47,256 nt of DNA, from IMG/VR virus record IMGVR_UViG_3300045988_140943, one strand, 5' to 3'. Shown one piece after another: positions 1-47,256 of the stretch; within the stretch, counting starts at the first letter, position 1, and each line of letters begins with the position of its first letter. The notes beneath the pieces are model-generated. The model was not told the DNA's origin, searched no databases, and was given only the letters and a program-made list of their open reading frames with translations. This DNA comes from a virus. The position numbers and the translations under genes were made by a program.

Positions 1-59
1 AGATGAAGAACTCTGGGAAGAGGAAAACATAAATGAAAAAGAAAAGGTAATATCCCAAA
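1..59. repeat. 59-nt terminal overlap, identical to 47198..47256 (circular or circularly permuted genome; unit length 47197 nt)
   Basis: The string agatgaagaactctgggaagaggaaaacataaatgaaaaagaaaaggtaatatcccaaa was read at both window ends. Confidence 0.95.
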
Positions 60-5058: not shown

Positions 5059-5070
5059 TTATTAATTTTC

Positions 5071-5121
5071 TGTAAACATTACCCAAAATCTATTTACAAA
5101 ACCAGAAATCTGTGATATAAT
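5071..5121 (+). promoter_or_regulatory. consensus sigma-A-type promoter cassette P1 (upstream TGTAAACA, -35 TTTACA, extended -10 TGaTATAAT)
   Basis: TGTAAACA 5071..5078, TTTACA 5093..5098, 17-nt spacer, TATAAT 5116..5121, then a G-poor A-rich leader and cttacagaggtg SD. Confidence 0.8.
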
Positions 5122-5171
5122 ATAATTATAAAAATAAAATAAACAATTAATCTTACAGAGGTGAATAAGAT

Positions 5172-5384: not shown

Positions 5385-6258
5385 GATCTTAGGTTCTCTC
5401 TATGGTTTTGCCATAGGAGATGCAATGGGAGCTACAATGGAGTTTCAGGAAAAGATAACTGATGAATCCAAAAAGATTAAGGATTTAATTGGAGGAGGTT
5501 GGTTAAATCTTTCCCCTGGTGAAACTACAGATGATACCCAAATGTCAGTATGTGTTTTGAAGGCTTTGATGGAACAAGCTAACAATCCAGAAAAGAAATT
5601 TATGGACTTAGTTGCCAAAAATTTTATTGATTGGTTTGACTCTAATCCAAAAGATATTGGTAATACTTGTGCCAGAGTTTTGAGGGTAGCAAAAACATTA
5701 CTTGATGAGGGTAATGAAATTCATTATGTTGCAGGTAAAATGAAGCTAATTGCCTTTGATGTTAAAGCTCTTGGAAATGGAGCTTTGATGAGGGCTTTAC
5801 CTTGTGCATTGTTTAACAAGATCTGGAAAAACTTAGATCAAGCTTTTATGACCCACAATAATGTTAGTCAAGAAACTTGTATTATAACTTATGACGCTCT
5901 TATAAAGCATTTGCTTGTTCCTGTTAGTCCATTATGTTTTTCTTACGGTTTGCATTCCATATTTAAAATAAAGGAACCAATGGAACCAACTGGTTGTGTA
6001 ATAAATACAATGAATAATGCTTGTTACTATGCTCTTAATTGTAATTCCTTTGAGGAATGTATAATCAATGCAGTAAATGATGGTGGAGATGCTGATACGA
6101 TTGCTGCTATTGCAGGAAGTATTGCTGGTGCAATATTTGGATATGACAGTATTCCGAAACGTTGGAAAGAGGTATTTAAAACAAATCCTCTGAACTATGA
6201 AACAATTGAATTGTTTGAAAAGGTTCCCGAGGTTTTGGATAAGCTTAAAGTTTATTAA
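5362..6258 (+). CDS. ADP-ribosylglycohydrolase (ARH/DraG family)
   Basis: GFAIGDAMGATMEF, PGETTDDTQM, GGDADTIAAIAGSIAGA. The track's N-terminal extension from 5233 is an out-of-frame read through the upstream gene; ATG 5362 (or GTG 5353) starts the conserved domain. Confidence 0.9.
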   Translation: MLSSLENKILGSLYGFAIGDAMGATMEFQEKITDESKKIKDLIGGGWLNLSPGETTDDTQMSVCVLKALMEQANNPEKKFMDLVAKNFIDWFDSNPKDIGNTCARVLRVAKTLLDEGNEIHYVAGKMKLIAFDVKALGNGALMRALPCALFNKIWKNLDQAFMTHNNVSQETCIITYDALIKHLLVPVSPLCFSYGLHSIFKIKEPMEPTGCVINTMNNACYYALNCNSFEECIINAVNDGGDADTIAAIAGSIAGAIFGYDSIPKRWKEVFKTNPLNYETIELFEKVPEVLDKLKVY

Positions 6259-6263
6259 CATTT

Positions 6264-6314
6264 TGTAAACAATTCTTATTATCTATTTACTTTTGCCCAA
6301 TTTTATGTTATAAT
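6264..6314 (+). promoter_or_regulatory. promoter cassette P2
   Basis: TGTAAACA 6264..6271, TTTACT 6286..6291, 17-nt spacer, TGtTATAAT ending at 6314, leader plus cttacggaggtaaat. Confidence 0.8.
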
Positions 6315-6358
6315 AATATCATAAATAAAACAAAACTTAACTTACGGAGGTAAATAAA

Positions 6359-21994: not shown

Positions 21995-22097
21995 GCAAGA
22001 ATTAGAGCAAATTGCCAAAAATTTATGTCAACAACGTGGAATAAATTTAGATGAAGCAAAAAACCAATTTGCTCAAATGTTTAATCAGAGGAAATAA
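21894..22097 (+). CDS. 67-aa Q/N/M-rich protein, unknown function
   Basis: GAGGTGA SD 7 nt upstream; overlaps the upstream ORF by 101 nt out of frame. Confidence 0.6.
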   Translation: MFNPMQIMMFQMQNQLMNNPLFKRAQEMANGKSEQELEQIAKNLCQQRGINLDEAKNQFAQMFNQRK

Positions 22098-22152
22098 TCG
22101 TAGCCCATACGATTATATAAATTTATTTTATTTTCAAAAGGAGGAATGATTT

Positions 22153-22830
22153 ATGGGTATGGAAGGTTCCGGTTTATCCGTAGCAGATGCTCTTGCTCTT
22201 CAAGACAGAGGCACAAACGATAATATGTTTGGTGGCAATGGTGCTTGGGTATTTTTCCTGTTCTTCTTGCTTGCTTGGGGCGGCAATGGAATCTGGGGTA
22301 ACAGAGGAAATGCAGATCTGCAAGGAGCTCTTACAAGAGCTGATCTTTGTCAGGATATGAATTTCCAAAGTCTTGAGAATTCTGTAAGAGGAATCCAGAG
22401 TGGTCTTTGTGATGGATTCTATGCAATGAACACAACTGCTCTTCAGGGGTTCAATGGTATTTCAAGAGATGTTGCTCAAGGCTTTGCTAATACCAATGCG
22501 GGCATTACAGATCTTGGCTACCAGATGAAGACTTGCTGTTGCGAAACAAACAGAAATATCGATGCTGTTCGCTATGAGAATGCACAAAATACTTGTGCCA
22601 TTACAAATGCAATTCATGCAGAGGGTGAACAGACAAGAGCCCTTATCCAGACAAATGAGATCCAAGCTCTCAGAGATAAGGTTGCTGATTTACAGCTTGC
22701 TCAGAGTCAATGTGCTCAAAATGCTTATCTTGTTGATAAGCTTCAGCCTGTTGCTCGTCCGGCATACATTACTTGTAGCCCTTATGCAACTAATACTTGT
22801 GGTTATGGCTGCGGCAACTATTCAATGTAA
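22153..22830 (+). CDS. Gly/Trp-rich membrane protein with Cys clusters and a coiled-coil segment
   Basis: AAGGAGG SD; GGNGAWVFFLFFLLAWGGNGIWGNRGN, CCCETN, C-terminal CSPYATNTCGYGCGNY. Confidence 0.75.
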   Translation: MGMEGSGLSVADALALQDRGTNDNMFGGNGAWVFFLFFLLAWGGNGIWGNRGNADLQGALTRADLCQDMNFQSLENSVRGIQSGLCDGFYAMNTTALQGFNGISRDVAQGFANTNAGITDLGYQMKTCCCETNRNIDAVRYENAQNTCAITNAIHAEGEQTRALIQTNEIQALRDKVADLQLAQSQCAQNAYLVDKLQPVARPAYITCSPYATNTCGYGCGNYSM

Positions 22831-23051
22831 TGGATTCTCTTCACGGAGATGAAAGCCAATTAGGTTTATTAGATATTCTAGCTATGGTTAGCTTTTGTAT
22901 TCAGTTGATGAATATGGAAAAGAACGCCAAACAGCTTAGCAATGACGATATAATGGAAGAATTGCAAAGGCAAGATGGGCAATATCTAGAAACAATAATT
23001 GGCAATCAAAATAAAATTATGAGTATGTTGGAGAAACTCCAAACCAATTGA
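22830..23051 (+). CDS. 73-aa protein with one hydrophobic segment
   Basis: TAATG coupling; LGLLDILAMVSFCIQLMN. Confidence 0.6.
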   Translation: MDSLHGDESQLGLLDILAMVSFCIQLMNMEKNAKQLSNDDIMEELQRQDGQYLETIIGNQNKIMSMLEKLQTN

Positions 23052-23075
23052 TGGCTTGCTCAAATAATTTTTAAG

Positions 23076-23109
23076 GAGGGTAAGTTAATCTTGCCCTCTT
23101 ATTTTTTTT
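23076..23109 (+). terminator. rho-independent terminator
   Basis: gagggtaag/cttgccctc stem, loop ttaat, then a T8-containing tract. Confidence 0.8.
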
Positions 23110-23125
23110 AAGGAGGTTTTTAATT

Positions 23126-23549
23126 ATGATTAACTCAGTAAACACTTCAACACAAACGGTAAATGACACCCAGCCAGTAGTATTTACTTCAAGTAATGTA
23201 AGAACTCGTTCTTGCAGGTCTTGCTGTGGAGGTTGGCTTTCTCACACAGATAACTCAGGCCTTTTTCACGATTACAGAACCAGGTATTTATGAGGTATCA
23301 TTTAATGCTGATGTAGCCCAACCAACTACAGCTGGTGCAATTACTCTTGATATTGCTCAAGGTGGCACTACAATCCCTGGAGGCAGAATGATAACAACCC
23401 CAACTGTTATCAATGCTTTCTTTAATGTTTCTTCAAGTGTTCTGGTAAAGGTAAATTGCAGAGAAACAGCTGCTATCAGTGTTATTAATAACTCAGGTAC
23501 AGATATCACAGCTCAACAAGCAAGTTTGACAATTAAAAGACTTTGTTAA
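23126..23549 (+). pseudogene. C1q/TNF-like (BclA C-terminal-domain-like) protein split by a +1 frame change at a T5 run
   Basis: AAGGAGG plus ATG 23126 gives MINSVNTSTQTVNDTQPVVF..SHTDNSGLF, then a stop at 23291. The +1 frame continues FTITEPGIYEVSFNADV...ASLTIKRLC to 23549. The frames meet at ttttt 23262..23266. Confidence 0.65.
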
Positions 23550-23565
23550 TTGGAGGTGAAAGCAA

Positions 23566-24147
23566 ATGCTGATTAATGGTCAAGAAGGATCGGCTGCAAA
23601 TTATTCAGAAATGTCTCCAATAGAAATCTTTGAGAAAATCAATAATCATCAGCTTAAGGGAATTATGTTCCATGATAGTTTGATCTCGTTGTTTGACTTC
23701 TTGTATCTTCCCGGATTTAAGCGTTGGCAAATGTGCCAGCTTAGGTCTGAATCCGAAGAACGTTGTGAATTCAAGCATTATGTAATGAGGAACCATCATA
23801 AACTTCTTAAAGATGCTCCTGACACTAAAGAAGAAATTATCCCCGAAGATTGGTATCAATATACTAGATTTGATGTTACCCCACAACTTAGAAGACAGTA
23901 TGTGGAAAGTGCATTTATCAAATATAAGGAATGGGAAAATAAGACCAAAGTTTTGTATGAACAATGTTCAAAAGTCCTTTATGATAATGGTAATATTTTA
24001 GATGCTTGTAAAGTTCAGGAGTTGGCAGAAGATGTGGAAGAAGAATTGGCTTGTGTCAATAAGTACTACCTCAAACTTAAAGCTGTTGGGTTTGATTCTG
24101 AATTTATTTATGAAATGCAAGAACATTTTCACAAGAAATATAAATAA
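23566..24147 (+). CDS. hypothetical helical protein (possibly ferritin-like four-helix bundle)
   Basis: GGAGGTGA SD; 193 aa; helical, His/Glu-containing repeats; no firm motif. Confidence 0.7.
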   Translation: MLINGQEGSAANYSEMSPIEIFEKINNHQLKGIMFHDSLISLFDFLYLPGFKRWQMCQLRSESEERCEFKHYVMRNHHKLLKDAPDTKEEIIPEDWYQYTRFDVTPQLRRQYVESAFIKYKEWENKTKVLYEQCSKVLYDNGNILDACKVQELAEDVEEELACVNKYYLKLKAVGFDSEFIYEMQEHFHKKYK

Positions 24148-24154
24148 ATGATAT

Positions 24155-24188
24155 AAGGCCACCTATTCTGGGTGGCTTTTTATTTTGT
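24155..24188 (+). terminator. rho-independent terminator
   Basis: aaggccacc/ggtggcttt stem (one G-U), loop tattctg, then ttttatttt. Confidence 0.8.
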
Positions 24189-24247
24189 AAACAATTTGTT
24201 AAATATATCATTTGCCTATTTACAAATGCCAAAATCTGTGATATAAT
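24186..24247 (+). promoter_or_regulatory. promoter cassette P5 (two upstream elements)
   Basis: TGTAAACA at 24186, TGTTAAAT at 24197, TTTACA 24219..24224, 17-nt spacer, TGaTATAAT ending at 24247. Confidence 0.8.
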
Positions 24248-24304
24248 ATAAACATAATAAAACATAAGATAAAACCTAATAAAACTTACGGAGGTAAATT
24301 AAAA

Positions 24305-24517
24305 ATGATGAAGGTAACAAAAACAACATTTTCAATGATAGTAAAGAACAGATATGAGGCTAACAAAAAGGTTGCAATGCTCCAGAAGAAACTTAAGAGT
24401 GGTAAATGGGGAAAGCCAGTTTCATATGAAATGTTTAGTGGAGAAAAGAATTCCGAAGATGTTCTTGCAAGGATTGAAAAACTCAATCCTGGTTATGAAT
24501 GGAGAGTTGCAGAATAA
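24305..24517 (+). CDS. hypothetical 70-aa protein
   Basis: cttacggaggtaaat SD cassette. Confidence 0.75.
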   Translation: MMKVTKTTFSMIVKNRYEANKKVAMLQKKLKSGKWGKPVSYEMFSGEKNSEDVLARIEKLNPGYEWRVAE

Positions 24518-24531
24518 GCTTAATTATATAA

Positions 24532-24588
24532 ATTCCCCTGATGAGTCTCGGAAGATTGAGACGAAACTCCCGAAAGGGAGTCGGGAAT
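24532..24588 (+). ncRNA. hammerhead self-cleaving ribozyme, type I topology (stem I open)
   Basis: Stem I AUUCCC/GGGAAU; core CUGAUGA 24538..24544; stem II GUCUC/GAGAC with loop GGAAGAUU; GAAA 24563..24566; stem III CUCCC/GGGAG with a GAAA tetraloop; GUC triplet with predicted cleavage after C24582. Confidence 0.9.
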
Positions 24589-24625
24589 AAAATCCAACAA
24601 ATAAAATTTACGGAGGTAAAAAACT

Positions 24626-24823
24626 ATGGCAAACTTTAATTATGAATGGTGGACAGTTTCAGTTAAATGTTTAACTGGTGTATATTCATACGAATTCAAG
24701 ACAAAGAATAAGCAGAACGTTATCCGCCAAATTAAAAAGCTGGAAAAAGAAGACTTCAGTATAGTAGAAATTTTCTGGGATACGTTAAAGCTTGATAGAG
24801 TTGGTTATCAAAGATTAAGCTAA
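24626..24823 (+). CDS. hypothetical 65-aa protein
   Basis: tttacggaggtaaaa SD but no promoter; sits 43 nt downstream of the predicted ribozyme cleavage site. Confidence 0.75.
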   Translation: MANFNYEWWTVSVKCLTGVYSYEFKTKNKQNVIRQIKKLEKEDFSIVEIFWDTLKLDRVGYQRLS

Positions 24824-24927
24824 TAAAAAGTAACTGTAAGTCTTATTGTTAGGTGGGATAATGGTAGCGGACTTAATTGTTATTTATGGTGAGAATATTA
24901 TTTGTAAGATATAAAGGAGGAAATACT

Positions 24928-25338
24928 ATGAAAGAAATGGTATATAAACAATTTGACGAGAATGGACAAAAGATTATTGATATGCTTGACGAAGGAGTTT
25001 ACAATGACTTTCATTATGCCATAGTTTCTTATGGCACTCACCCTTGTGCTTATGTTGAAATTCCAGAGGGACATGGGTTATATGATGTTAGTGATGAAGA
25101 TGAGCTTGTTAATATTGATTGTCATGGCGGTATTACTTATGTTTCTAAAACAGGACTCATTAGACCTAGTAATAAGAACTATAGAGATGGATGTTGGATA
25201 GGTTGGGATTATGCACACTGCATGGACTATTATTGTTCGCCTTATAATTTTGAATTTTTTAATGAGGGCAAGAAATGGACAACTAAAGAAATATTTGAGG
25301 AAGTTAAAGACGTTATTAAACAGCTAACAAAAAAGTAA
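24928..25338 (+). CDS. hypothetical protein (conserved phage-type HPCAYV..HGGITY..GWDYAH pattern)
   Basis: AAAGGAGG SD before ATG 24928 (the track start at 24877 lacks an SD). Confidence 0.75.
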   Translation: MKEMVYKQFDENGQKIIDMLDEGVYNDFHYAIVSYGTHPCAYVEIPEGHGLYDVSDEDELVNIDCHGGITYVSKTGLIRPSNKNYRDGCWIGWDYAHCMDYYCSPYNFEFFNEGKKWTTKEIFEEVKDVIKQLTKK

Positions 25339-25350
25339 ATGTTAACTTTC

Positions 25351-25401
25351 TGTAAATTCTGATAAAAACCTATTTACAAATTACTGAAGGTGTGATATAA
25401 T
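25351..25401 (+). promoter_or_regulatory. promoter cassette P6
   Basis: TGTAAATT at 25351, TTTACA 25373..25378, 17-nt spacer, TGaTATAAT ending at 25401. Confidence 0.8.
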
Positions 25402-25483
25402 AAATATATAAAATAAAACAAGAATAAATCACTTGAAAGAATCAAGTCGATAATGAACGGTAAATCTTATGGAGGTAAATCAA

Positions 25484-25843
25484 ATGGAAGTTAAAACTTT
25501 AAAAGAGATCGCTGTAGCAGATGCTATTAATATGCCTTATCTAATAATTGATATGGCTACACCCGTTAAGGGTTATGAAAAATACAATTTTCATAGAGGA
25601 ATGAGATGTAAGGTTAATGGCTTTCCATTTGAGCTTATGTCAGAAAATGAAGAATTATCTTTGGAAGCGGAGGCAATTTCAATAACCAGATGGAGGCAAA
25701 AGGAATCAAACACTCTTAAGCTTATTCCTGAATTTAAAGGTGGAGAAACTATTGCAATCATAAAAATATTTGATGGTTATGCAAAAGCTTTTACATATAC
25801 TCTTCCCAACAAAGTACGGCAGCAATCTTTCATAATCAAATAA
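25484..25843 (+). CDS. hypothetical protein
   Basis: ATG 25484 follows cttatggaggtaaat. The track start at 25469 is the ATG inside that SD motif. Confidence 0.75.
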   Translation: MEVKTLKEIAVADAINMPYLIIDMATPVKGYEKYNFHRGMRCKVNGFPFELMSENEELSLEAEAISITRWRQKESNTLKLIPEFKGGETIAIIKIFDGYAKAFTYTLPNKVRQQSFIIK

Positions 25844-25886
25844 AATTTTGGTGTAAGTGAAGCGATAACACTTAAAACACTAATAT

Positions 25887-25973
25887 GCCTCTGTGGTGGA
25901 ATTGGTAGACACAAAGGACTTAAAATCCTTCGGAGTAAAACCCGTACCGGTTCAAATCCGGTTAGAGGTACCA
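25887..25973 (+). tRNA. tRNA-Leu (anticodon UAA), type II with a long variable arm, CCA encoded
   Basis: Hand fold: acceptor GCCTCTG/TAGAGGT (two G-U), D GTG/CAC, anticodon stem AAGGA/TCCTT with loop CTTAAAA, variable CGG..CCG, T arm ACCGG-TTCAAAT-CCGGT, then ACCA. Confidence 0.85.
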
Positions 25974-26207
25974 TTAAGTTCGACAGATAAAAACTTGTGT
26001 TGTGAGCACATAAGAACATTTTAGAACTTATTCTTGTACATTGAGCAAGTACAAGGAGGTGGACGAACTGGTTGTATAACTCTTTTTACAACATAATATT
26101 GGACAAAAATATCAAGTACGCCAATCAATATGATTTTATTACGGCTTTTGAAGAATATCATACATACAGCTCCCAATGCCTATGAGGTTAAATTAGGTAG
26201 TCCACTT

Positions 26208-26283
26208 TGGGATATAGCCAAGAGGTAAGGCAACGGACTTTGACTCCGTCATTCCACTGGTTCGAATCCAGTTATCCCAACCA
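26208..26283 (+). tRNA. tRNA-Gln (anticodon UUG), CCA encoded
   Basis: Hand fold: acceptor TGGGATA/TATCCCA (U1-A72), anticodon stem ACGGA/TCCGT with loop CTTTGAC, T arm ACTGG-TTCGAAT-CCAGT, then ACCA. Confidence 0.85.
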
Positions 26284-26331
26284 ATACTCTTAAACATTCA
26301 AGAGGGATAATAAAATACGGAGGTAAATATT

Positions 26332-26862
26332 ATGGAACCTTATACAAAAGAATGCTTGGAAAGCTATACGGTTGCAGATCTCAGAAAGATTGCTAAAAAC
26401 TTTCATATTGTTGGCAGATGGGAGATGAATAAATCCGATCTTATAATGTACATTCTGTTAGCCCAGAAAGATTGGGAGATTAGAAAAGAATCCTGTCTTA
26501 ATGCAACTGAAGTTTATGAAGCAGAAAAGAAACAGCCTGAAAAAGAGCAGACTGAAGAAACTCTTGAGGATAAGAAAATTCTGCAAGATAATTTCAACAA
26601 CAATCACTCAAAATACTTAGCTAATATTGAAGTTGGAAGGCTGGTTGCTTTTAATGACCATAATATGGGAATCGTAAGAGCAGCCCGAGTTGTAAATATC
26701 TCTCAGAAAAGACAGCAGCTTAAGGTCATTGATATTTATGGAAGTGTTGAGGTAATATCTTTCGAGCAAGTTGCTTGGGTAAAAACAGGAAAGCGTTGGC
26801 CAAGAAGATTGTTCCACCTTATTAGATGTGGTCAGCTTCTTCAATATATGCTTAGAAATTAG
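26332..26862 (+). CDS. hypothetical protein with an N-terminal Rho_N/SAP-like motif
   Basis: acggaggtaaat SD; YTVADLRKIAKNFHIVGRWEMNKSDLIMYIL. Confidence 0.75.
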   Translation: MEPYTKECLESYTVADLRKIAKNFHIVGRWEMNKSDLIMYILLAQKDWEIRKESCLNATEVYEAEKKQPEKEQTEETLEDKKILQDNFNNNHSKYLANIEVGRLVAFNDHNMGIVRAARVVNISQKRQQLKVIDIYGSVEVISFEQVAWVKTGKRWPRRLFHLIRCGQLLQYMLRN

Positions 26863-26872
26863 GTGGTATAAG

Positions 26873-27361
26873 TTGAACAAAAAGACCAAGCAGCAACTTG
26901 ACGATTTAATCATTAATTACAAGAAAAATAAAGAAAGAATCGAAAAGTTGCAGAGTGACAATGACTTTATTAAAAACAGAATCATGTTTCTGTTAGGTAA
27001 AGCAAAAACAAAAACCTTTGAATATTACAACCCGGAGATGTTTCCAGATATAATCAAGTGTACAGTATGTGAAAGAAAAACTTTGAGTTATAATGTCCAA
27101 AGAGCCAAAGAACTTCTTGGAAGAAAAAGACTAAATTCTATCTTGGATAAAGATTATTCTATAGGTGATATTGAAAAGCTTAAAGAATTGGCTAAATCCC
27201 ATGGAATATCTGCAAATGAATTAAAGTCTTGCTTGGAAGTTCAAGAAAAAATAAATAGTAAGAAACTAGATCAAGCTTATAACTTAGGAGAAATTGATGA
27301 TGAGGAAGTTGAGGAATTTGTTAAGGTTGACACAACTTCTAAGTATTTAACTTTCAAGTAA
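26873..27361 (+). CDS. hypothetical coiled-coil protein
   Basis: TTG 26873 after AGGTGG; the track start at 26828 overlaps the previous gene. Confidence 0.6.
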   Translation: MNKKTKQQLDDLIINYKKNKERIEKLQSDNDFIKNRIMFLLGKAKTKTFEYYNPEMFPDIIKCTVCERKTLSYNVQRAKELLGRKRLNSILDKDYSIGDIEKLKELAKSHGISANELKSCLEVQEKINSKKLDQAYNLGEIDDEEVEEFVKVDTTSKYLTFK

Positions 27362-27375
27362 GTTGGTGTTATAAA

Positions 27376-28320
27376 ATGTTGGATAACAAACAAGGGGAAA
27401 ATCTTGCTAAAGTATTATTATATTATGGTTTGATTGAAAGTCCTGATGTAAGTGACCAAAAAATAGTTTGTCCATTCCACGAAGATGTAAATCCTTCAAT
27501 GGCAATTAATTTAGTTGATGGCACATATTATTGTTTTGGCTGCAATAAATCTGGAGGCCCTGAAAGTTTTGTATTTCGGATGGAATCAAAATATAATGGA
27601 CTGAATGATTTGCAATCCTTGATAAAATATCATAAGATTCTCAAGTCAAATAAATCACTTCATTTGAAATTCTCTAGGAGTAGAAAGTATAAGAAAAGTG
27701 ATAAAATTTATTTGGTAATGGCGCATGATTATTATTATTGCCTATCCAAAACAGATTGGTATAGTAATGACCCGGAAGTTTTAAGGGTACTATCATACAT
27801 GAAACAAAGAGGATTTACTAGAAAGATCTTAAGTAAAGTTGGTGCAAAGATAACCTATAATAGTTCTTATCCAATCATTTTTCCAATTATGGACAATGAA
27901 GAATTCAAAGGTTATGTATGTAGAACAACAGATAAATCCATAGAACAAAAAAGGAAATATCTTTATAATGAAGGTTTTTCAAGAGCAACTACTTTGGTGG
28001 GAAAATATTCAGAGGAATGTATACCGATTATAGTTGAGGGCTATATGGATATGCTTAAACTTATCCAGTTTGGTGAGGAAAATGTAATTGCTTTATTTGG
28101 TTGGAAAGCTACTGAAAATCAAATAAATAAAATGAAAAAAGCAGGGATTAAAAAGATAATCTGTGCTACTGATAATGATGATTGTGGAGTCAAAGGTTAT
28201 CATTACCTTAAGAATTTTTTTGATGTAAAAAGATTTTGCTTTCCCAAAGGGGTTAAAGATGTGGGGGAGATGAATGTACAAACATACAAAAGATGCAAAA
28301 TAAAAACGATGAGCAAATAG
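27376..28320 (+). CDS. DNA primase (DnaG-type zinc finger plus TOPRIM)
   Basis: CPFHEDVNPSMAINLVDGTYYCFGCNKSG; IVEGYMDMLKL...ATDNDDCGVKG. Confidence 0.85.
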   Translation: MLDNKQGENLAKVLLYYGLIESPDVSDQKIVCPFHEDVNPSMAINLVDGTYYCFGCNKSGGPESFVFRMESKYNGLNDLQSLIKYHKILKSNKSLHLKFSRSRKYKKSDKIYLVMAHDYYYCLSKTDWYSNDPEVLRVLSYMKQRGFTRKILSKVGAKITYNSSYPIIFPIMDNEEFKGYVCRTTDKSIEQKRKYLYNEGFSRATTLVGKYSEECIPIIVEGYMDMLKLIQFGEENVIALFGWKATENQINKMKKAGIKKIICATDNDDCGVKGYHYLKNFFDVKRFCFPKGVKDVGEMNVQTYKRCKIKTMSK

Positions 28321-36245: not shown

Positions 36246-36307
36246 TGTAAATAATTTATTAACTCTTGCTTTTATCTATTGACTTTTGCAAGATTATGCT
36301 GTATAAT
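36246..36307 (+). promoter_or_regulatory. promoter cassette P8 (two upstream elements)
   Basis: TGTAAATA at 36246, TATTAACT at 36257, TTGACT 36279..36284, 17-nt spacer, TATAAT 36302..36307. Confidence 0.75.
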
Positions 36308-36357
36308 ATATACATAAACAAAAACAAAATATATAAATCTTACGGAGGTAATTAACT

Positions 36358-36834
36358 ATGAAAACTACAAAGAAAACTATGATTGCTGAAATGCTCAACA
36401 AGGTAAACGCTAAGAAGAATGAAGAAGGTAACTTCTCAATAACAGCTGAAGCTCTTGATGAACTCAGAACACTGGTTGAAGAATCCGAGATGTTCAAGGT
36501 ATGCAAGAACAAGAAGGATGAGACTTTGTTCTCTATCTATGATAAGCCTGGCAAAACAAAGTTTGTAGTCCTTAAGCTTGTCAAGAAGACAAAGAAAACT
36601 ACAAACAAAACTACAAATGGTTTTGGAACAACCAAAGGTAAGTTTAAGTTTTACTCCATTGTTATCAAAGCCTTTGGTAGTGATGAGGTTAAGGAAATCA
36701 CTTCCCTTAATACTTGTGAACAGGTAAAGGCATTTCTTAAGCAACTCAACAAAAAGAATGTAGAATTCCTTAGAATCTACTCTGAAGGCAAAGAGGTAAG
36801 AAAATCAGCTTGGATCGAAAGAATCTCTGCATAA
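36358..36834 (+). CDS. hypothetical Lys-rich protein
   Basis: cttacggaggtaatt SD cassette; 158 aa. Confidence 0.75.
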   Translation: MKTTKKTMIAEMLNKVNAKKNEEGNFSITAEALDELRTLVEESEMFKVCKNKKDETLFSIYDKPGKTKFVVLKLVKKTKKTTNKTTNGFGTTKGKFKFYSIVIKAFGSDEVKEITSLNTCEQVKAFLKQLNKKNVEFLRIYSEGKEVRKSAWIERISA

Positions 36835-42117: not shown

Positions 42118-42130
42118 ATTATTAATTTTT

Positions 42131-42181
42131 TGTAAATTACTCCAAATCCCTATTGACAAATCAAAAGACTTGTGTTATAAT
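42131..42181 (+). promoter_or_regulatory. promoter cassette P9
   Basis: TGTAAATT at 42131, TTGACA 42153..42158, 17-nt spacer, TGtTATAAT ending at 42181. Confidence 0.8.
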
Positions 42182-42243
42182 AATATTAAATTAATAAATA
42201 ACATTTGTTTATTATAACCTACCAAAAGAAGGTTAAATAAAAT

Positions 42244-44091: not shown

Positions 44092-44106
44092 ATTCTATTA
44101 AATTTT

Positions 44107-44157
44107 TGTAAACATTCCTCAAACCCTATTTACAAACAATAATTTTTGTGTTATAAT
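44107..44157 (+). promoter_or_regulatory. promoter cassette P10
   Basis: TGTAAACA at 44107, TTTACA 44129..44134, 17-nt spacer, TGtTATAAT ending at 44157; about 97 nt from the end of the -10 to the ATG. Confidence 0.8.
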
Positions 44158-44254
44158 ATAATCATAATCAATAAACCAAATAAATAAATTACTGATGTGA
44201 ATTTGGTTGACACGGTTAAAACAAAATCTAATTATTAAAAAGGAGAAATTTATT

Positions 44255-44938
44255 ATGGCAAAGAATTGGACAATGGCAGAAGCAATGAAGGTAATCTCAG
44301 CAGCAGACCTTAACTCAGAGGAGATTGCAGATCTTTATAAGAGATTCCCAAATGTGGCAAGACTTATGACGGCTATTGCTTCCGGTGACACAATGGCAGC
44401 TAAGATGCTTATTCATTTCCTTCCTGAATGGGCAACTGTTGGTAAGCTTGAGAAGGCTATCAAGAATGCAGGTGAAGCTGACGACAATGCAGAAGATGAT
44501 GTTACTTCCGGCGATGAGGAAGTTGAGGAAGAGACTGAGGAGGAGGAAGCTCCTAAGCCAAAGAAGAAGGCAAGAAAGTCAAAGAAGGCTGCCAAGGTTG
44601 AGGAACCAGAGGACGAGGAAAACGACGATTCTGATGAGGAAGATTCCGAAACAACTGATTATGAGTCAATGACTGCTCAGGAACTCTTCAAGCTTTGCAA
44701 GGAGAAGGGTATTGCTGTAAAGCCAAAGAGAAGTGTTAAGTCCTATATTGAGAAGCTGAAGGCTGCTGAGGATGTACAGGACAACGATTCTGATTCTGAC
44801 GATTGGACAGACGATGAGGTTGAGGAAACACCAAAGGCAAAGAAGGCTGTTAAGCCTGCTGCTGAAAAGGCTGCTCCAAAGAAGGCAAAGAAGGCTGCTA
44901 AGGTTGAAGACGACGACGATGAAGATTGGGATATTTAA
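44255..44938 (+). CDS. highly acidic/Lys-rich protein with an HeH (SAP/Rho_N-like) motif and a DDW-type acidic tail
   Basis: AAAGGAG SD before ATG 44255; YESMTAQELFKLCKEKGIAVKPKRSVKSYIEKL; tail EDDDDEDWDI. Confidence 0.75.
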   Translation: MAKNWTMAEAMKVISAADLNSEEIADLYKRFPNVARLMTAIASGDTMAAKMLIHFLPEWATVGKLEKAIKNAGEADDNAEDDVTSGDEEVEEETEEEEAPKPKKKARKSKKAAKVEEPEDEENDDSDEEDSETTDYESMTAQELFKLCKEKGIAVKPKRSVKSYIEKLKAAEDVQDNDSDSDDWTDDEVEETPKAKKAVKPAAEKAAPKKAKKAAKVEDDDDEDWDI

Positions 44939-46285: not shown

Positions 46286-46297
46286 CTATTAACATTT

Positions 46298-46348
46298 TGT
46301 AAACAATGAATTAAACCTATTTACTTTTGCCTAAATCTATGTTATAAT
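46298..46348 (+). promoter_or_regulatory. promoter cassette P11
   Basis: TGTAAACA at 46298, TTTACT 46320..46325, 17-nt spacer, TGtTATAAT ending at 46348. Confidence 0.8.
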
Positions 46349-46398
46349 ATATATAATAAATAATAAAAAATATACAAATCTTATGGAGGTAAGATACT

Positions 46399-46685: not shown

Positions 46686-47256
46686 GTGATTCTTATTTCA
46701 AATTCAAAAGCAAAAACAACCCATAAGTCTTATGTAGATGAATGGTTAACAGAAGATAAATTAATGTTGATAGAATGTTGGGCAAGAGATGGTTACACAA
46801 GAAATGATATATGTAAAAGAATAGGAATCACAATTCAAACATTCTATAGATGGATAGAACAATATCCACAATTTAAAAAAGCTTTATATAAGGGTAAAGA
46901 GGTTATAGATTATCAGGTAGAGAATGCTTTATTAAAATCTGCTTTAGGTTATACTACTAGGGAGACAAAGGTAATAAGAAGTAATAGGCCTGATAAAGAT
47001 GGTAATTTTGAAATCAGAACTGAAATAACAGAAAAGGAAATTGCTCCTAATACAACAGCTATTGCTATATGGTTAAATAATAGAAAGCCAGACCAATGGA
47101 AAAGAAATAGGGATAACTCCCTTGAGCTTAAAGATTCTGATAATAAGATAACTGTAAACATATATAAGGCTTCAGATAAGAAAGATGAAAATAATGAAGA
47201 TGAAGAACTCTGGGAAGAGGAAAACATAAATGAAAAAGAAAAGGTAATATCCCAAA
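46686..47256 (+). CDS. terS: terminase small subunit, N-terminal part (runs off the window; continues at 2..262)
   Basis: WLTEDKLMLIECWARDGYTRNDICKRIGITIQTFYRWIEQYPQFKKAL (HTH) and EKEIAPNTTAIAIWLNNRKPDQWKRNRD. Not in the track because no stop occurs before the window end. Start approximate (GTG 46686 next to AGGAAG). Confidence 0.75.
   Translation, partial: MILISNSKAKTTHKSYVDEWLTEDKLMLIECWARDGYTRNDICKRIGITIQTFYRWIEQYPQFKKALYKGKEVIDYQVENALLKSALGYTTRETKVIRSNRPDKDGNFEIRTEITEKEIAPNTTAIAIWLNNRKPDQWKRNRDNSLELKDSDNKITVNIYKASDKKDENNEDEELWEEENINEKEKVISQ
47198..47256. repeat. second copy of the 59-nt terminal overlap (= 1..59)
   Basis: Exact identity, read by eye. Confidence 0.95.

What the first reader, a model, noticed from the sequence alone, without database searches (positions are those of the whole stretch)
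24532..24588. Textbook hammerhead ribozyme between two small cassette genes
All invariant hammerhead core positions are present in the right order.
- Stem I is AUUCCC (24532..24537) paired with GGGAAU (24583..24588).
- C3-A9 is CUGAUGA (24538..24544).
- Stem II is GUCUC/GAGAC with loop GGAAGAUU.
- G12-A15.1 is GAAA (24563..24566).
- Stem III is CUCCC/GGGAG, capped by a GAAA tetraloop.
- The cleavage triplet is GUC, ending at C24582.

Stem I is the open stem, which makes this a type I topology. The element lies in the 108-nt gap between ORF 24305..24517 and ORF 24626..24823. The downstream gene has the conserved ttacggaggtaaa ribosome site but is one of the few cassette genes without its own promoter.

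Cleavage would leave a 43-nt leader starting at G24583. That is similar to the roughly 30-50 nt leaders expected from the promoter cassettes. The ribozyme may therefore substitute for a promoter by creating a defined monocistronic 5' end, or uncouple the stability of the two mRNA halves. tRNA processing at 26283 would do the same for ORF 26332, leaving a 48-nt leader.
Basis: partly seen in the sequence, partly recalled or inferred. Interest (0 to 1): 0.85.

Follow-up and report, generated by a model that had tools for sequence, protein, structure and literature searches.

The report
Type I hammerhead ribozyme in phage operon
This is very probably a real self-cutting RNA (a type I hammerhead ribozyme) sitting between two small genes of a gut phage; such ribozymes are already known to be common in phages, so it is a good new example rather than a new kind of thing.

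Summary
The motif is at 24532-24588 (+) exactly as described. All core positions are present, and three perfect helices form the minimum-energy fold. Rfam's type I hammerhead model scores 32.0 bits, just under its 34-bit cut-off (E 1.3e-6 locally), and whole-window Rfam scans miss it.

I found a phage subfamily of type I hammerheads that shares its stem II and loop II (GAARAUU) and conserved A's flanking a 5-6 bp stem I. The three helices covary strongly. A model built without the window scores it 81.5 bits (E 2e-21). It is the only copy in the genome.

It lies in an operon driven by the promoter at 24219-24247, 14 nt after ORF70 and 43 nt before ORF65. Near-identical phages carry other alleles here: L003 has no ORF70 or ribozyme, L001 has a different gene and no ribozyme, and L002 has the same ribozyme with a core U4-to-A change. 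The ribozyme is therefore the 3' end of an optional 322-nt module.

Across 87 phage type I hammerheads, 40% lie 15-60 nt upstream of a gene start, against 10% of random positions.

Most likely role: cutting the transcript into separate mRNAs. This was proposed in 2011 and is still untested. Verdict: new member of a known kind, moderate interest.

The parts
24155..24179 (+). Terminator-like hairpin with a T run. It closes the preceding transcription unit.
   Evidence: 11 pairs, 5 of them G-C, followed by a T run.
24219..24247 (+). Promoter of the unit that contains the ribozyme: TTTACA, 17 nt, TATAAT, with an upstream TG. It is one copy of the phage's repeated promoter cassette.
   Evidence: 11 of 12 consensus matches. 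families D1 and D2 (8 copies in the genome).
24286..24298 (+). Conserved ribosome site TTACGGAGGTAAA of ORF70. It is also the left copy of the 13-nt repeat that bounds the optional module.
   Evidence: Homology with L003 and L001 stops at 24298/24299.
24305..24517 (+). ORF70, a small gene of unknown function upstream of the ribozyme.
   Evidence: 100% identical in L007, 46% identical homologue in L008. No Pfam or PHROG match.
24299..24620 (+). Optional 322-nt module: ORF70, the hammerhead and a leader with a ribosome site. It is absent from the near-identical phage L003 and replaced by another gene in L001.
24530..24532 (+). Conserved A's at positions -8 to -6 relative to C3. They are a family-specific 5' flank and a presumed tertiary-contact partner of loop II.
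   Evidence: among 50 subfamily members, A is 64% at -8, 94% at -7 and 82% at -6.
24532..24537 (+). Stem I, 5' strand (AUUCCC).
24538..24544 (+). Catalytic core C3-A9 (CUGAUGA).
24545..24562 (+). Stem II hairpin (GUCUC and GAGAC) with loop GGAAGAUU.
   Evidence: The loop is shared with L053, L103, L131 and others.
24563..24565 (+). Core G12-A13-A14.
24566..24581 (+). Stem III hairpin, from A15.1 to U16.1 (ACUCCC, GAAA loop, GGGAGU).
24582..24583 (+). Predicted cleavage site between C17 (24582) and G1.1 (24583).
   Evidence: Position in the hammerhead consensus. Cleavage itself was not tested.
24583..24588 (+). Stem I, 3' strand (GGGAAU). These would be the first six nucleotides of the downstream product.
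24583..24625 (+). 43-nt leader of the downstream mRNA after cleavage. It includes the ribosome site at 24608-24620.
   Evidence: D6: 78% identical to the promoter-derived leader at 36321-36360.
24626..24823 (+). ORF65, the small downstream gene of unknown function.
   Evidence: homologues at 47-97% identity in six viral contigs.

Best explanation
The element is a genuine type I hammerhead self-cleaving ribozyme. It belongs to a subfamily that is common in phage contigs.

It is transcribed from the promoter at 24219-24247 as part of one RNA: ORF70, ribozyme, ORF65 and onward. The RNA folds into the three-way junction and cuts itself between C24582 and G24583.

- The upstream product is the ORF70 mRNA. 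It ends in the compact ribozyme with a 2',3'-cyclic phosphate.
- The downstream product starts with a 5'-hydroxyl at G24583. It carries only six ribozyme nucleotides plus a 43-nt leader of native length with the conserved ribosome site.

The two halves of the operon thereby become separate molecules whose stability and translation are uncoupled. The ribozyme came in as the 3' end of an optional ORF70 module inserted between a promoter/ribosome site and ORF65. It gives ORF65 back a short leader like the one it has when the promoter drives it directly.

Shown: the sequence, the fold, family membership by covariation, and the gene context. Inferred: cleavage itself, and its effect on expression.
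For: **Sequence and fold**
- The core and helices are exact.
- The minimum-energy fold is the hammerhead junction.

**Model scores**
- Rfam RF00163 gives E 1.3e-6.
- The leave-one-out family model gives 81.5 bits, E 2e-21, with a single hit in the genome.

**Family evidence**
- A pattern that fixes only the core, the first 3 bp of stem II and the GUC triplet hit at least 120 viral stretches.
- Of 110 distinct matches, 92 have at least 5 contiguous stem I pairs, against 0.6% of controls.
- In a 26-sequence subfamily alignment, 95.3% of cells pair against 70.9% when shuffled. There are 90 double-sided changes against 21.2 when shuffled. All slid registers collapse to 30-45% paired.
- The window also has the family-specific features outside the core: loop II GAARAUU, A's at -8 to -6, and A at +7.

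**Context**
- 40% of 87 phage type I hammerheads have a Shine-Dalgarno-preceded gene start 15-60 nt after the cut, against 10% of random positions.
- In the window the distance is 43 nt.
- No promoter or terminator lies between ORF70 and ORF65.

**Comparison with related phages**
- L003 has the same promoter and ribosome site directly on ORF65.
- The post-cleavage leader resembles promoter-derived leaders (D6).

**Literature**
- Prophage hammerheads that flank small genes cleave in vitro and in E. coli, and transcript processing has been proposed for them (PMC3088659; PMC6155905).
Against: - No cleavage data exist for this sequence.
- The Rfam score is 2 bits below the curated cut-off.
- The only other copy of this exact ribozyme (L002, a phage 98.3% identical) has U4 changed to A in the catalytic core. 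It is the only difference in about 200 nt. Activity may therefore not be under strong selection. L144 has U4 changed to C.
- L001 carries a different inserted gene at the same place with no ribozyme. L008 has an ORF70 homologue without one. ORF65 expression therefore does not need it.
- The host is probably a Firmicute (terminase nearest to Clostridium phages). There, from my knowledge of glmS and RNase J1, a 5'-hydroxyl can mark an RNA for decay rather than protect it.
- Relatives were collected with patterns taken from the window's own core and stem II. For the alignment, at least 4 stem I pairs were required, which inflates stem I pairing (but not stem III, nor stem II pairs 4-5).
Confidence: 0.6

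Rival explanations
1. The ribozyme is active, but its effect is to turn down the distal genes. In a Firmicute host, the 5'-hydroxyl product would be a substrate for RNase J1, as with the glmS ribozyme. Cleavage would then set a fixed lower level of ORF65 and downstream mRNA relative to ORF70.
For: - The host is probably a Firmicute: the terminase is closest to Clostridium and Bacillus phages, ribosome sites are strong GGAGG, and G+C is low.
- glmS cleavage followed by RNase degradation is the only well-understood bacterial case (PMC6765202). The RNase J1 specificity comes from my own knowledge.
Against: - The product keeps a strong ribosome site 25 nt from its 5' end. Ribosome binding can block 5' exonucleases (my knowledge of STAB-SD elements).
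- The enrichment of hammerheads 15-60 nt upstream of gene starts fits a role in making usable leaders better than one in destroying them.
- The host is not actually known.
Confidence: 0.15
2. The ribozyme is a hitchhiking or decaying element. It travelled with the ORF70 module by recombination, may still cleave, but contributes nothing to fitness here.
For: - Presence is polymorphic among phages 93-98% identical.
- L002 has the U4-to-A core change.
- L001 and L008 manage without a ribozyme.
Against: - The window copy is perfect in all core positions and in all 17 helix pairs. It also keeps the family-specific flanks and loop.
- At 1.7% divergence, one substitution in a 57-nt element is expected by chance, so the L002 change is weak evidence.
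- The family as a whole is strongly conserved and positioned non-randomly.
Confidence: 0.15
3. The element is one end of an RNA that is excised and circularised or mobilised, like retrozymes or viroid-like RNAs.
For: Type I hammerheads serve this role in eukaryotic retrozymes (PMC7229834 and PMC7761336, listed). Perreault et al. considered ligation or circular products.
Against: - There is only one hammerhead in the 47-kb genome, and no other known ribozyme class, so there is no second cut to release a unit.
- Perreault et al. looked for spliced or circular products and found none.
Confidence: 0.03
4. The match is a chance resemblance to the hammerhead consensus and has no activity.
For: - The hit is below the Rfam gathering score.
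- A loose core pattern also matches once inside a coding region, at 44631-44689.
Against: - E 2e-21 with an independent family model.
- Perfect helices, family-specific loop and flanks, and an intergenic position.
- The 44628-44670 look-alike scores only 14.3 bits and has broken helices.
Confidence: 0.02

Closest known systems
Type I hammerhead ribozyme (Rfam RF00163, clan CL00010)
   Same: It has the full catalytic core, three helices with stem I open, and a GUC cleavage triplet. The Rfam alignment covers the whole model, positions 1-45.
   Different: - It scores 32.0 bits against the 34-bit gathering score.
- Stems II and III are longer than the model consensus.
- Stem I is only 5-6 bp, with conserved unpaired A's at its open end. 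The Schistosoma-type ribozyme has an internal loop there instead (my knowledge).
Clustered prophage and phage hammerheads flanking small genes (Perreault et al. 2011, PMC3088659; de la Pena 2017 review, PMC6155905)
   Same: It is intergenic, co-oriented with small genes of unknown function in a phage, and has the same proposed role of cutting long transcripts into gene-length mRNAs.
   Different: - This genome has one copy rather than a cluster.
- It is type I, whereas the 2011 work stressed type II and pseudoknot contacts.
- Natural alleles with and without the ribozyme exist at the same locus.
RAGATH-1 hammerhead variant (Rfam RF03152)
   Same: It shares an A-rich linker (UAUAAA) just 5' of a 5-bp stem I, and the same core. 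It scores 30.6 bits.
   Different: - The score is far below the gathering score of 56.3.
- The defining upstream hairpin is not formed: two of its four pairs are non-standard in the alignment.
- Stem II here is a full 5-bp hairpin rather than a minimal one.
Synthetic ribozyme insulators such as RiboJ
   Same: A self-cleaving hammerhead placed between upstream sequence and a ribosome site, so that the downstream gene gets a fixed leader whatever lies upstream.
   Different: - RiboJ is an engineered type III satellite-virus ribozyme with an added hairpin.
- This one is natural and type I, and it leaves only six ribozyme nucleotides on the downstream RNA.
glmS ribozyme (PMC6765202)
   Same: Self-cleavage in the leader of a Firmicute mRNA, producing a 5'-hydroxyl product whose fate is set by cellular RNases.
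   Different: - glmS is ligand-dependent and has an unrelated fold.
- It lowers expression.
- No ligand pocket or regulation is evident here.

Membership tests
Hammerhead ribozyme, type I | Invariant core: C3 U4 G5 A6 N7 G8 A9, G12 A13 A14, the A15.1-U16.1 pair, and H17 at the cleavage site. | tested here: met
   Read directly from the sequence: CUGAUGA at 24538-24544, GAA at 24563-24565, A24566-U24581, and C24582.
Hammerhead ribozyme, type I | Three helices around the core, with stems II and III closed by loops and stem I open. | tested here: met
   The minimum-energy and centroid folds are this junction. There are 6, 5 and 6 Watson-Crick pairs.
Hammerhead ribozyme, type I | Score at or above the Rfam RF00163 gathering threshold (34 bits). 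| tested here: not met
   32.0 bits and E 1.3e-6 in a 161-nt search. Not listed in whole-window scans. The miss is narrow, and the E-value is still significant.
Hammerhead ribozyme, type I | Helices supported by compensatory changes in related sequences. | tested here: met
   11 of 16 pairs change on both sides, and the covariation score is 0.592 against 0.126 shuffled and at most 0.09 in slid registers. The leave-one-out model gives 81.5 bits. Caveat: the first 4 stem I pairs were a selection criterion.
Hammerhead ribozyme, type I | A tertiary contact between stem I and loop II, needed for fast cleavage at physiological Mg2+. | tested here: inconclusive
   Loop II (GAARAUU) and the unpaired A's at -8 to -6 and +7 are conserved across the subfamily, and the window has them. 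No base-pairing pseudoknot could be identified. The contact itself cannot be shown with these tools.
Hammerhead ribozyme, type I | [quoted passage not shown] | not testable with these tools
   This needs in vitro transcription or end-specific RNA-seq.
RAGATH-1 hammerhead (RF03152) | An extra hairpin 5' of stem I, a minimal stem II, and a score at or above 56.3 bits. | tested here: not met
   30.6 bits. The upstream hairpin has non-standard pairs and a 4-nt deletion, and stem II is a full hairpin.
Phage transcript-processing hammerheads (functional class proposed in PMC3088659) | Intergenic, co-oriented with the flanking genes, and inside a multi-gene transcript. | tested here: met
   All genes are on the + strand. 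The promoter is at 24219-24247. No promoter or terminator lies between ORF70 and ORF65. The element is 14 nt after one gene and 43 nt before the next.
Phage transcript-processing hammerheads (functional class proposed in PMC3088659) | Cleavage changes the stability or translation of the flanking cistrons. | not testable with these tools
   There are no expression data. Reviews call this an open question.

The most novel reading that the evidence does not exclude
The hammerhead is the built-in 3' insulator of a promoterless, mobile gene module. Such modules recombine into phage operons at the conserved 13-nt ribosome-site repeat. The ribozyme cuts the newcomer's mRNA away, so the resident gene keeps its native short leader.

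If this is general, it would explain why phage hammerheads flank small, non-conserved genes and sit 15-60 nt upstream of the next start codon.
Probability: 0.2. Interest if true: 0.6.

Novelty: new member of a known kind. Interest (0 to 1): 0.33.

Why it matters
Hammerhead ribozymes next to small phage genes have been known since 2010-2011. What they do there is still described as an open question in the reviews (PMC6155905, PMC6765202).

This locus does not change the picture, but it is an unusually clean test case. It has one ribozyme, a mapped promoter, and four natural alleles in phages 93-98% identical:
- no insert (L003);
- an insert without a ribozyme (L001);
- an insert with an intact ribozyme (the window);
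- an insert with a core-mutant ribozyme (L002).

Comparing expression of the downstream gene across these alleles would directly test the processing or insulation hypothesis.

Two practical points also follow. Rfam-based annotation misses this subfamily in whole-genome scans.

Tried and rejected
**Rfam scans**
- The whole-window scan at gathering thresholds finds only the two tRNAs.
- The whole-window scan at E <= 0.5 lists only a weak RAGATH-1 hit and drops Hammerhead_1, because of the speed filters.
- An E <= 0.1 scan of seven related loci missed the hammerheads in L002 and L004, which my own model later found.
- RAGATH-1 membership is rejected: 30.6 against 56.3 bits, and no upstream hairpin.

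**Other copies in the window**
- There is no second hammerhead.
- The look-alike at 44628-44670 scores 14.3 bits, has broken helices and is coding. I rejected it.

**Other ribozymes**
- No other ribozyme class is in the window, nor in the L001 segment that replaces the module.

**Searches for close relatives**
- A megablast of 22000-28000 against GenBank phages found only tRNA-sized matches. No annotated close relative exists.
- The exact 49-nt ribozyme has no hit in the metagenome collection. The 28-nt core plus stem II gave four loci, none of the window's lineage. The frequency of the U4-to-A variant therefore could not be measured.
- The genome scan found only five bacterial or MAG contigs with the GGAAGAUU-loop form, and it gave no host assignment.

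**Tertiary contact**
- I looked for a Watson-Crick pseudoknot between loop II and the flanks. I found none convincing, only conserved A's.

**Literature**
- Supplements of Perreault 2011 and a full-text search did not contain the subfamily's stem II sequence. I therefore cannot say whether this exact subfamily has been described or assayed.

**Proteins**
- Pfam and PHROGs give no function for ORF70 or ORF65.

Full report
**1. The observation**

- Stem I is AUUCCC (24532-24537) with GGGAAU (24583-24588).
- The core is CUGAUGA (24538-24544).
- Stem II is GUCUC with GAGAC around the loop GGAAGAUU.
- GAA follows, then a stem III hairpin from A15.1 to U16.1 (ACUCCC-GAAA-GGGAGU), then C17 at 24582.

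This order, with stems II and III closed and stem I open, is the type I topology.

The 57-mer folds into precisely this junction as its minimum-energy and centroid structure (-22.2 kcal/mol; 1 of 200 shuffles folds as well). The junction survives in a 141-nt context.

Rfam's Hammerhead_1 model aligns end to end at 32.0 bits, E 1.3e-6 in a 161-nt search. That is 2 bits under the curated 34-bit cut-off. Both whole-window Rfam scans fail to list it, so a standard pipeline would not annotate it. The RAGATH-1 hammerhead model gives 30.6 bits against a cut-off of 56.3, and the extra hairpin that defines that variant is not there.

**2. Relatives and covariation**

I scanned IMG/VR with a pattern that fixes only the core, the first three pairs of stem II and the GUC triplet.

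- Among 110 distinct matches, 92 have at least five contiguous stem I pairs in flanks the pattern did not specify. Controls give 0.6%.
- 90 have at least three further stem III pairs.

Type I hammerheads are therefore abundant in phage contigs.

Within them is a subfamily that matches the window element closely:

- a 5-bp stem II;
- an 8-nt loop, UGAAAAUU or GGAAGAUU;
- a 5-6 bp stem I;
- a hairpin stem III of variable length.

The closest members are informative.

- L053, L134 and L145 have the identical stem II and loop, but a different stem I (CAGCC/GGCUG) and a different stem III (GCCC-GAAA-GGGC).
- L103 keeps the loop but swaps two stem II pairs.
- L004 has the same stem I with different stems II and III and a GUU triplet.

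On a 26-sequence alignment:

- 95.3% of cells form standard pairs, against 70.9% in shuffles;
- there are 90 double-sided changes, against 21.2 in shuffles;
- all registers slid by 1-3 columns fall to 30-45% paired.

Caveat: sequences entered the alignment only if the first four stem I pairs formed, and stem II pairs 1-3 were fixed by the search pattern. The unbiased evidence is therefore stem III, stem II pairs 4-5, and the count.

A covariance model built from the 25 relatives without the window scores the window element at 81.5 bits, E 2e-21, with no other hit in the genome at E <= 0.1.

Outside the helices the family conserves A at positions -8, -7 and -6 relative to C3 (64%, 94% and 82%) and A at +7 after the cut (76%). 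The window has A at all four (24530-24532 and 24589). These unpaired A's at the open end of a short stem I lie opposite a conserved loop II. They are the obvious candidates for the stem I/loop II tertiary contact that natural hammerheads need. I could not identify a base-paired pseudoknot, so this remains an inference.

**3. Context in the window**

The window is a complete, circularly assembled phage genome of 47,197 bp; its first and last 59 nt are identical (D7).

- All genes are on the + strand.
- G+C is about 34%.
- Its large terminase is closest to those of Clostridium and Bacillus phages at 50-60% identity. A Firmicute host is likely but not shown.

The ribozyme lies in a unit that begins after a terminator-like hairpin (24155-24179). 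The promoter at 24219-24247 (11 of 12 consensus matches plus an upstream TG) is one of eight copies of a repeated promoter cassette. The unit then runs:

- ribosome site 24286-24298;
- ORF70 (24305-24517);
- 14 nt of spacer;
- the ribozyme;
- a 43-nt leader containing the same 13-nt ribosome site (24608-24620);
- ORF65 (24626-24823).

No promoter-like or terminator-like site lies on the + strand between ORF70 and ORF65. The leader left after cleavage is 78% identical to the leader that follows the promoter at 36246-36308 (D6). It is also about the same length, assuming transcription starts about 7 nt after the -10 element.

Neither small protein matches Pfam or a PHROG of known function. Both have protein-level homologues in other viral contigs.

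**4. Natural alleles at the same locus**

| Contig | Relation to the window | What lies at the locus |
|---|---|---|
| L002 / L130 | 98.3% identical over 13 kb | Same ORF70 and same ribozyme, but CAGAUGA for CUGAUGA (U4 to A), the only difference in about 200 nt |
| L003 | 93-98% identical | Homology stops at 24298; the ORF65 homologue (94% aa) follows directly and DNA homology resumes at 25322. The same promoter and ribosome site drive ORF65 directly. The 322-nt segment 24299-24620 is missing and is bounded in the window by the two copies of TTACGGAGGTAAA |
| L001 | about 93% identical | A different 134-aa gene in place of ORF70. It ends 37 nt before ORF65, with no ribozyme of any Rfam class |
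| L008 | distant ORF70 homologue | No ribozyme after the gene |
| L004 | otherwise unrelated phage sharing only ORF65 | Subfamily hammerhead with the same stem I, 47 nt upstream of the gene after ORF65 |

The ribozyme is therefore the 3'-terminal part of an optional ORF70 module. It is not a fixed feature of ORF65 expression.

At 1.7% divergence, a single substitution somewhere in the 57-nt element is expected by chance. The U4A change is a flag, not proof of decay. U4-to-C also occurs in L144, and Perreault et al. noted rare tolerated core variants.

**5. General placement of such ribozymes**

I examined 87 distinct type I hammerheads in the fetched viral loci.

- 40% have a Shine-Dalgarno-preceded start of an ORF of at least 50 codons 15-60 nt downstream of the cut, against 10% of random positions on the same strands.
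- The median distance among those with a start within 400 nt is 38 nt. In the window it is 43 nt.

The gene calling was crude, but the enrichment is clear.

With type I topology nearly the whole ribozyme stays on the upstream product. Only the 5-6 nt of the stem I 3' strand stay on the downstream RNA. That suits a role in giving the next gene a clean, short leader.

**6. Mechanism and rivals**

*Best explanation (overall confidence 0.6; about 0.9 that the element is a genuine, cleavage-competent hammerhead).* The operon RNA cuts itself at 24582/24583.

- ORF70 mRNA ends in a compact structure with a cyclic phosphate.
- ORF65 mRNA starts with a 5'-hydroxyl and a native-length leader.
- The fates of the two halves are uncoupled.

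This is the hypothesis of Perreault et al. 2011 for prophage hammerheads. Reviews repeat it as unproven.

*Main rival (0.15).* The effect has the opposite sign. In Firmicutes the 5'-hydroxyl product of the glmS ribozyme is degraded (the RNase J1 detail is from my own knowledge). Cleavage might therefore turn down the distal genes.

*Second rival (0.15).* The ribozyme is a passenger of the module with no benefit here. The presence/absence polymorphism and the U4A allele support this. The perfect conservation of every helix pair, the family-specific flanks and the non-random placement argue against it.

*Minor rivals.* A circular or mobile RNA is unlikely with only one cleavage site in the genome. 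Chance is excluded for practical purposes.

**7.

The tRNA-Gln gene ends at 26283 and ORF 26332 follows 48 nt later, as stated. However, both tRNA genes encode their CCA end. From what is known of Bacillus tRNA maturation (my knowledge), CCA-encoding precursors are trimmed by 3' exonucleases rather than cut precisely by RNase Z. A defined 5' end at 26284 is not a safe expectation.

**8. Comparison with what is known, and verdict**

The element meets the defining sequence and structure features of a type I hammerhead. It has covariation support from relatives. It narrowly fails only Rfam's curated bit-score threshold. Catalysis and tertiary contacts could not be tested.

Hammerheads in phage intergenic regions, flanking small genes of unknown function, are well documented. 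This is a new member of a known kind.

Three things are modestly new:

- a definable phage subfamily that Rfam scans miss;
- the quantitative placement upstream of ribosome sites;
- this locus offers four natural alleles, which makes the open question of function directly testable.

Interest is about 0.33.

Noticed in passing
window 1-59 and 47198-47256: The first and last 59 nt are identical. The window is therefore a circularly assembled, apparently complete phage genome of 47,197 bp (family D7).
   Followed up: no
window 5060-5122, 6253-6315, 24186-24248, 25340-25402, 36246-36308, 42120-42182, 44096-44158, 46287-46349: There are eight copies of a 63-90 nt promoter cassette. Each has an upstream TGTAAAC-like element, a TTTACA or TTGACA -35 element and a TGTGATATAAT extended -10 element. 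Several are followed by a similar A-rich leader (families D1-D3, D6 and D8).
   Followed up: partly
window 6342, 24286, 24608, 32001 and 36879 (exact), plus four one-mismatch copies: The ribosome site TTACGGAGGTAAA occurs 9 times, against 0.05 expected. TTAC and GTAA are complementary, so the RNA can form a small hairpin that presents GGAG in its loop, as in the fold. The two copies at 24286 and 24608 also bound the 322-nt ORF70-plus-ribozyme insertion/deletion, so the repeat may serve as a recombination point for gene cassettes.
   Followed up: partly
window 24838-25321: A 484-nt segment carrying the next gene is absent from L001, L002 and L003. That gene probably starts at ATG 24929 after AAGGAGG, is 136 aa long and matches phrog_2164. 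The segment is flanked by an imperfect 20-nt repeat at the two stop-codon regions (24818-24837 and 25322-25341). This is a second cassette-type insertion/deletion right next to the first.
   Followed up: partly
window 25974-26207: A 234-nt non-coding gap lies between tRNA-Leu(UAA) and tRNA-Gln(UUG). It has no Rfam match even at E <= 0.5. Both tRNAs encode CCA.
   Followed up: no
L002:2913-2919 (the same contig is also held as L007 and L130); L144 around 7253: Natural core variants of otherwise intact subfamily hammerheads occur: CAGAUGA (U4 to A) in the 98.3%-identical sister phage, and CCGAUGA (U4 to C) in L144. Whether they still cleave is unknown.
   Followed up: partly
L092 (three copies, minus strand, cores starting at about 7844, 8442 and 9367 of the reverse complement); L109 1892-6196 (five copies): Some phage contigs carry three to five type I hammerheads within a few kb, each just upstream of a gene with a ribosome site. 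This is the clustered arrangement described for prophages in 2011.
   Followed up: no
L129, L137, L141 and L153: The same stem II and GGAAGAUU loop also occur in hammerheads with type III topology, where stem I is a hairpin and stem III is open. This loop may therefore be a reusable tertiary-contact module across topologies.
   Followed up: no
window 26332-26862: The first gene after the tRNAs has an N-terminal Rho_N (SAP-like) domain (Pfam PF07498, 26.3 bits). It is followed by a DnaG-type primase at 27376-28320. The ribozyme therefore sits at the start of the replication or early gene block.
   Followed up: no
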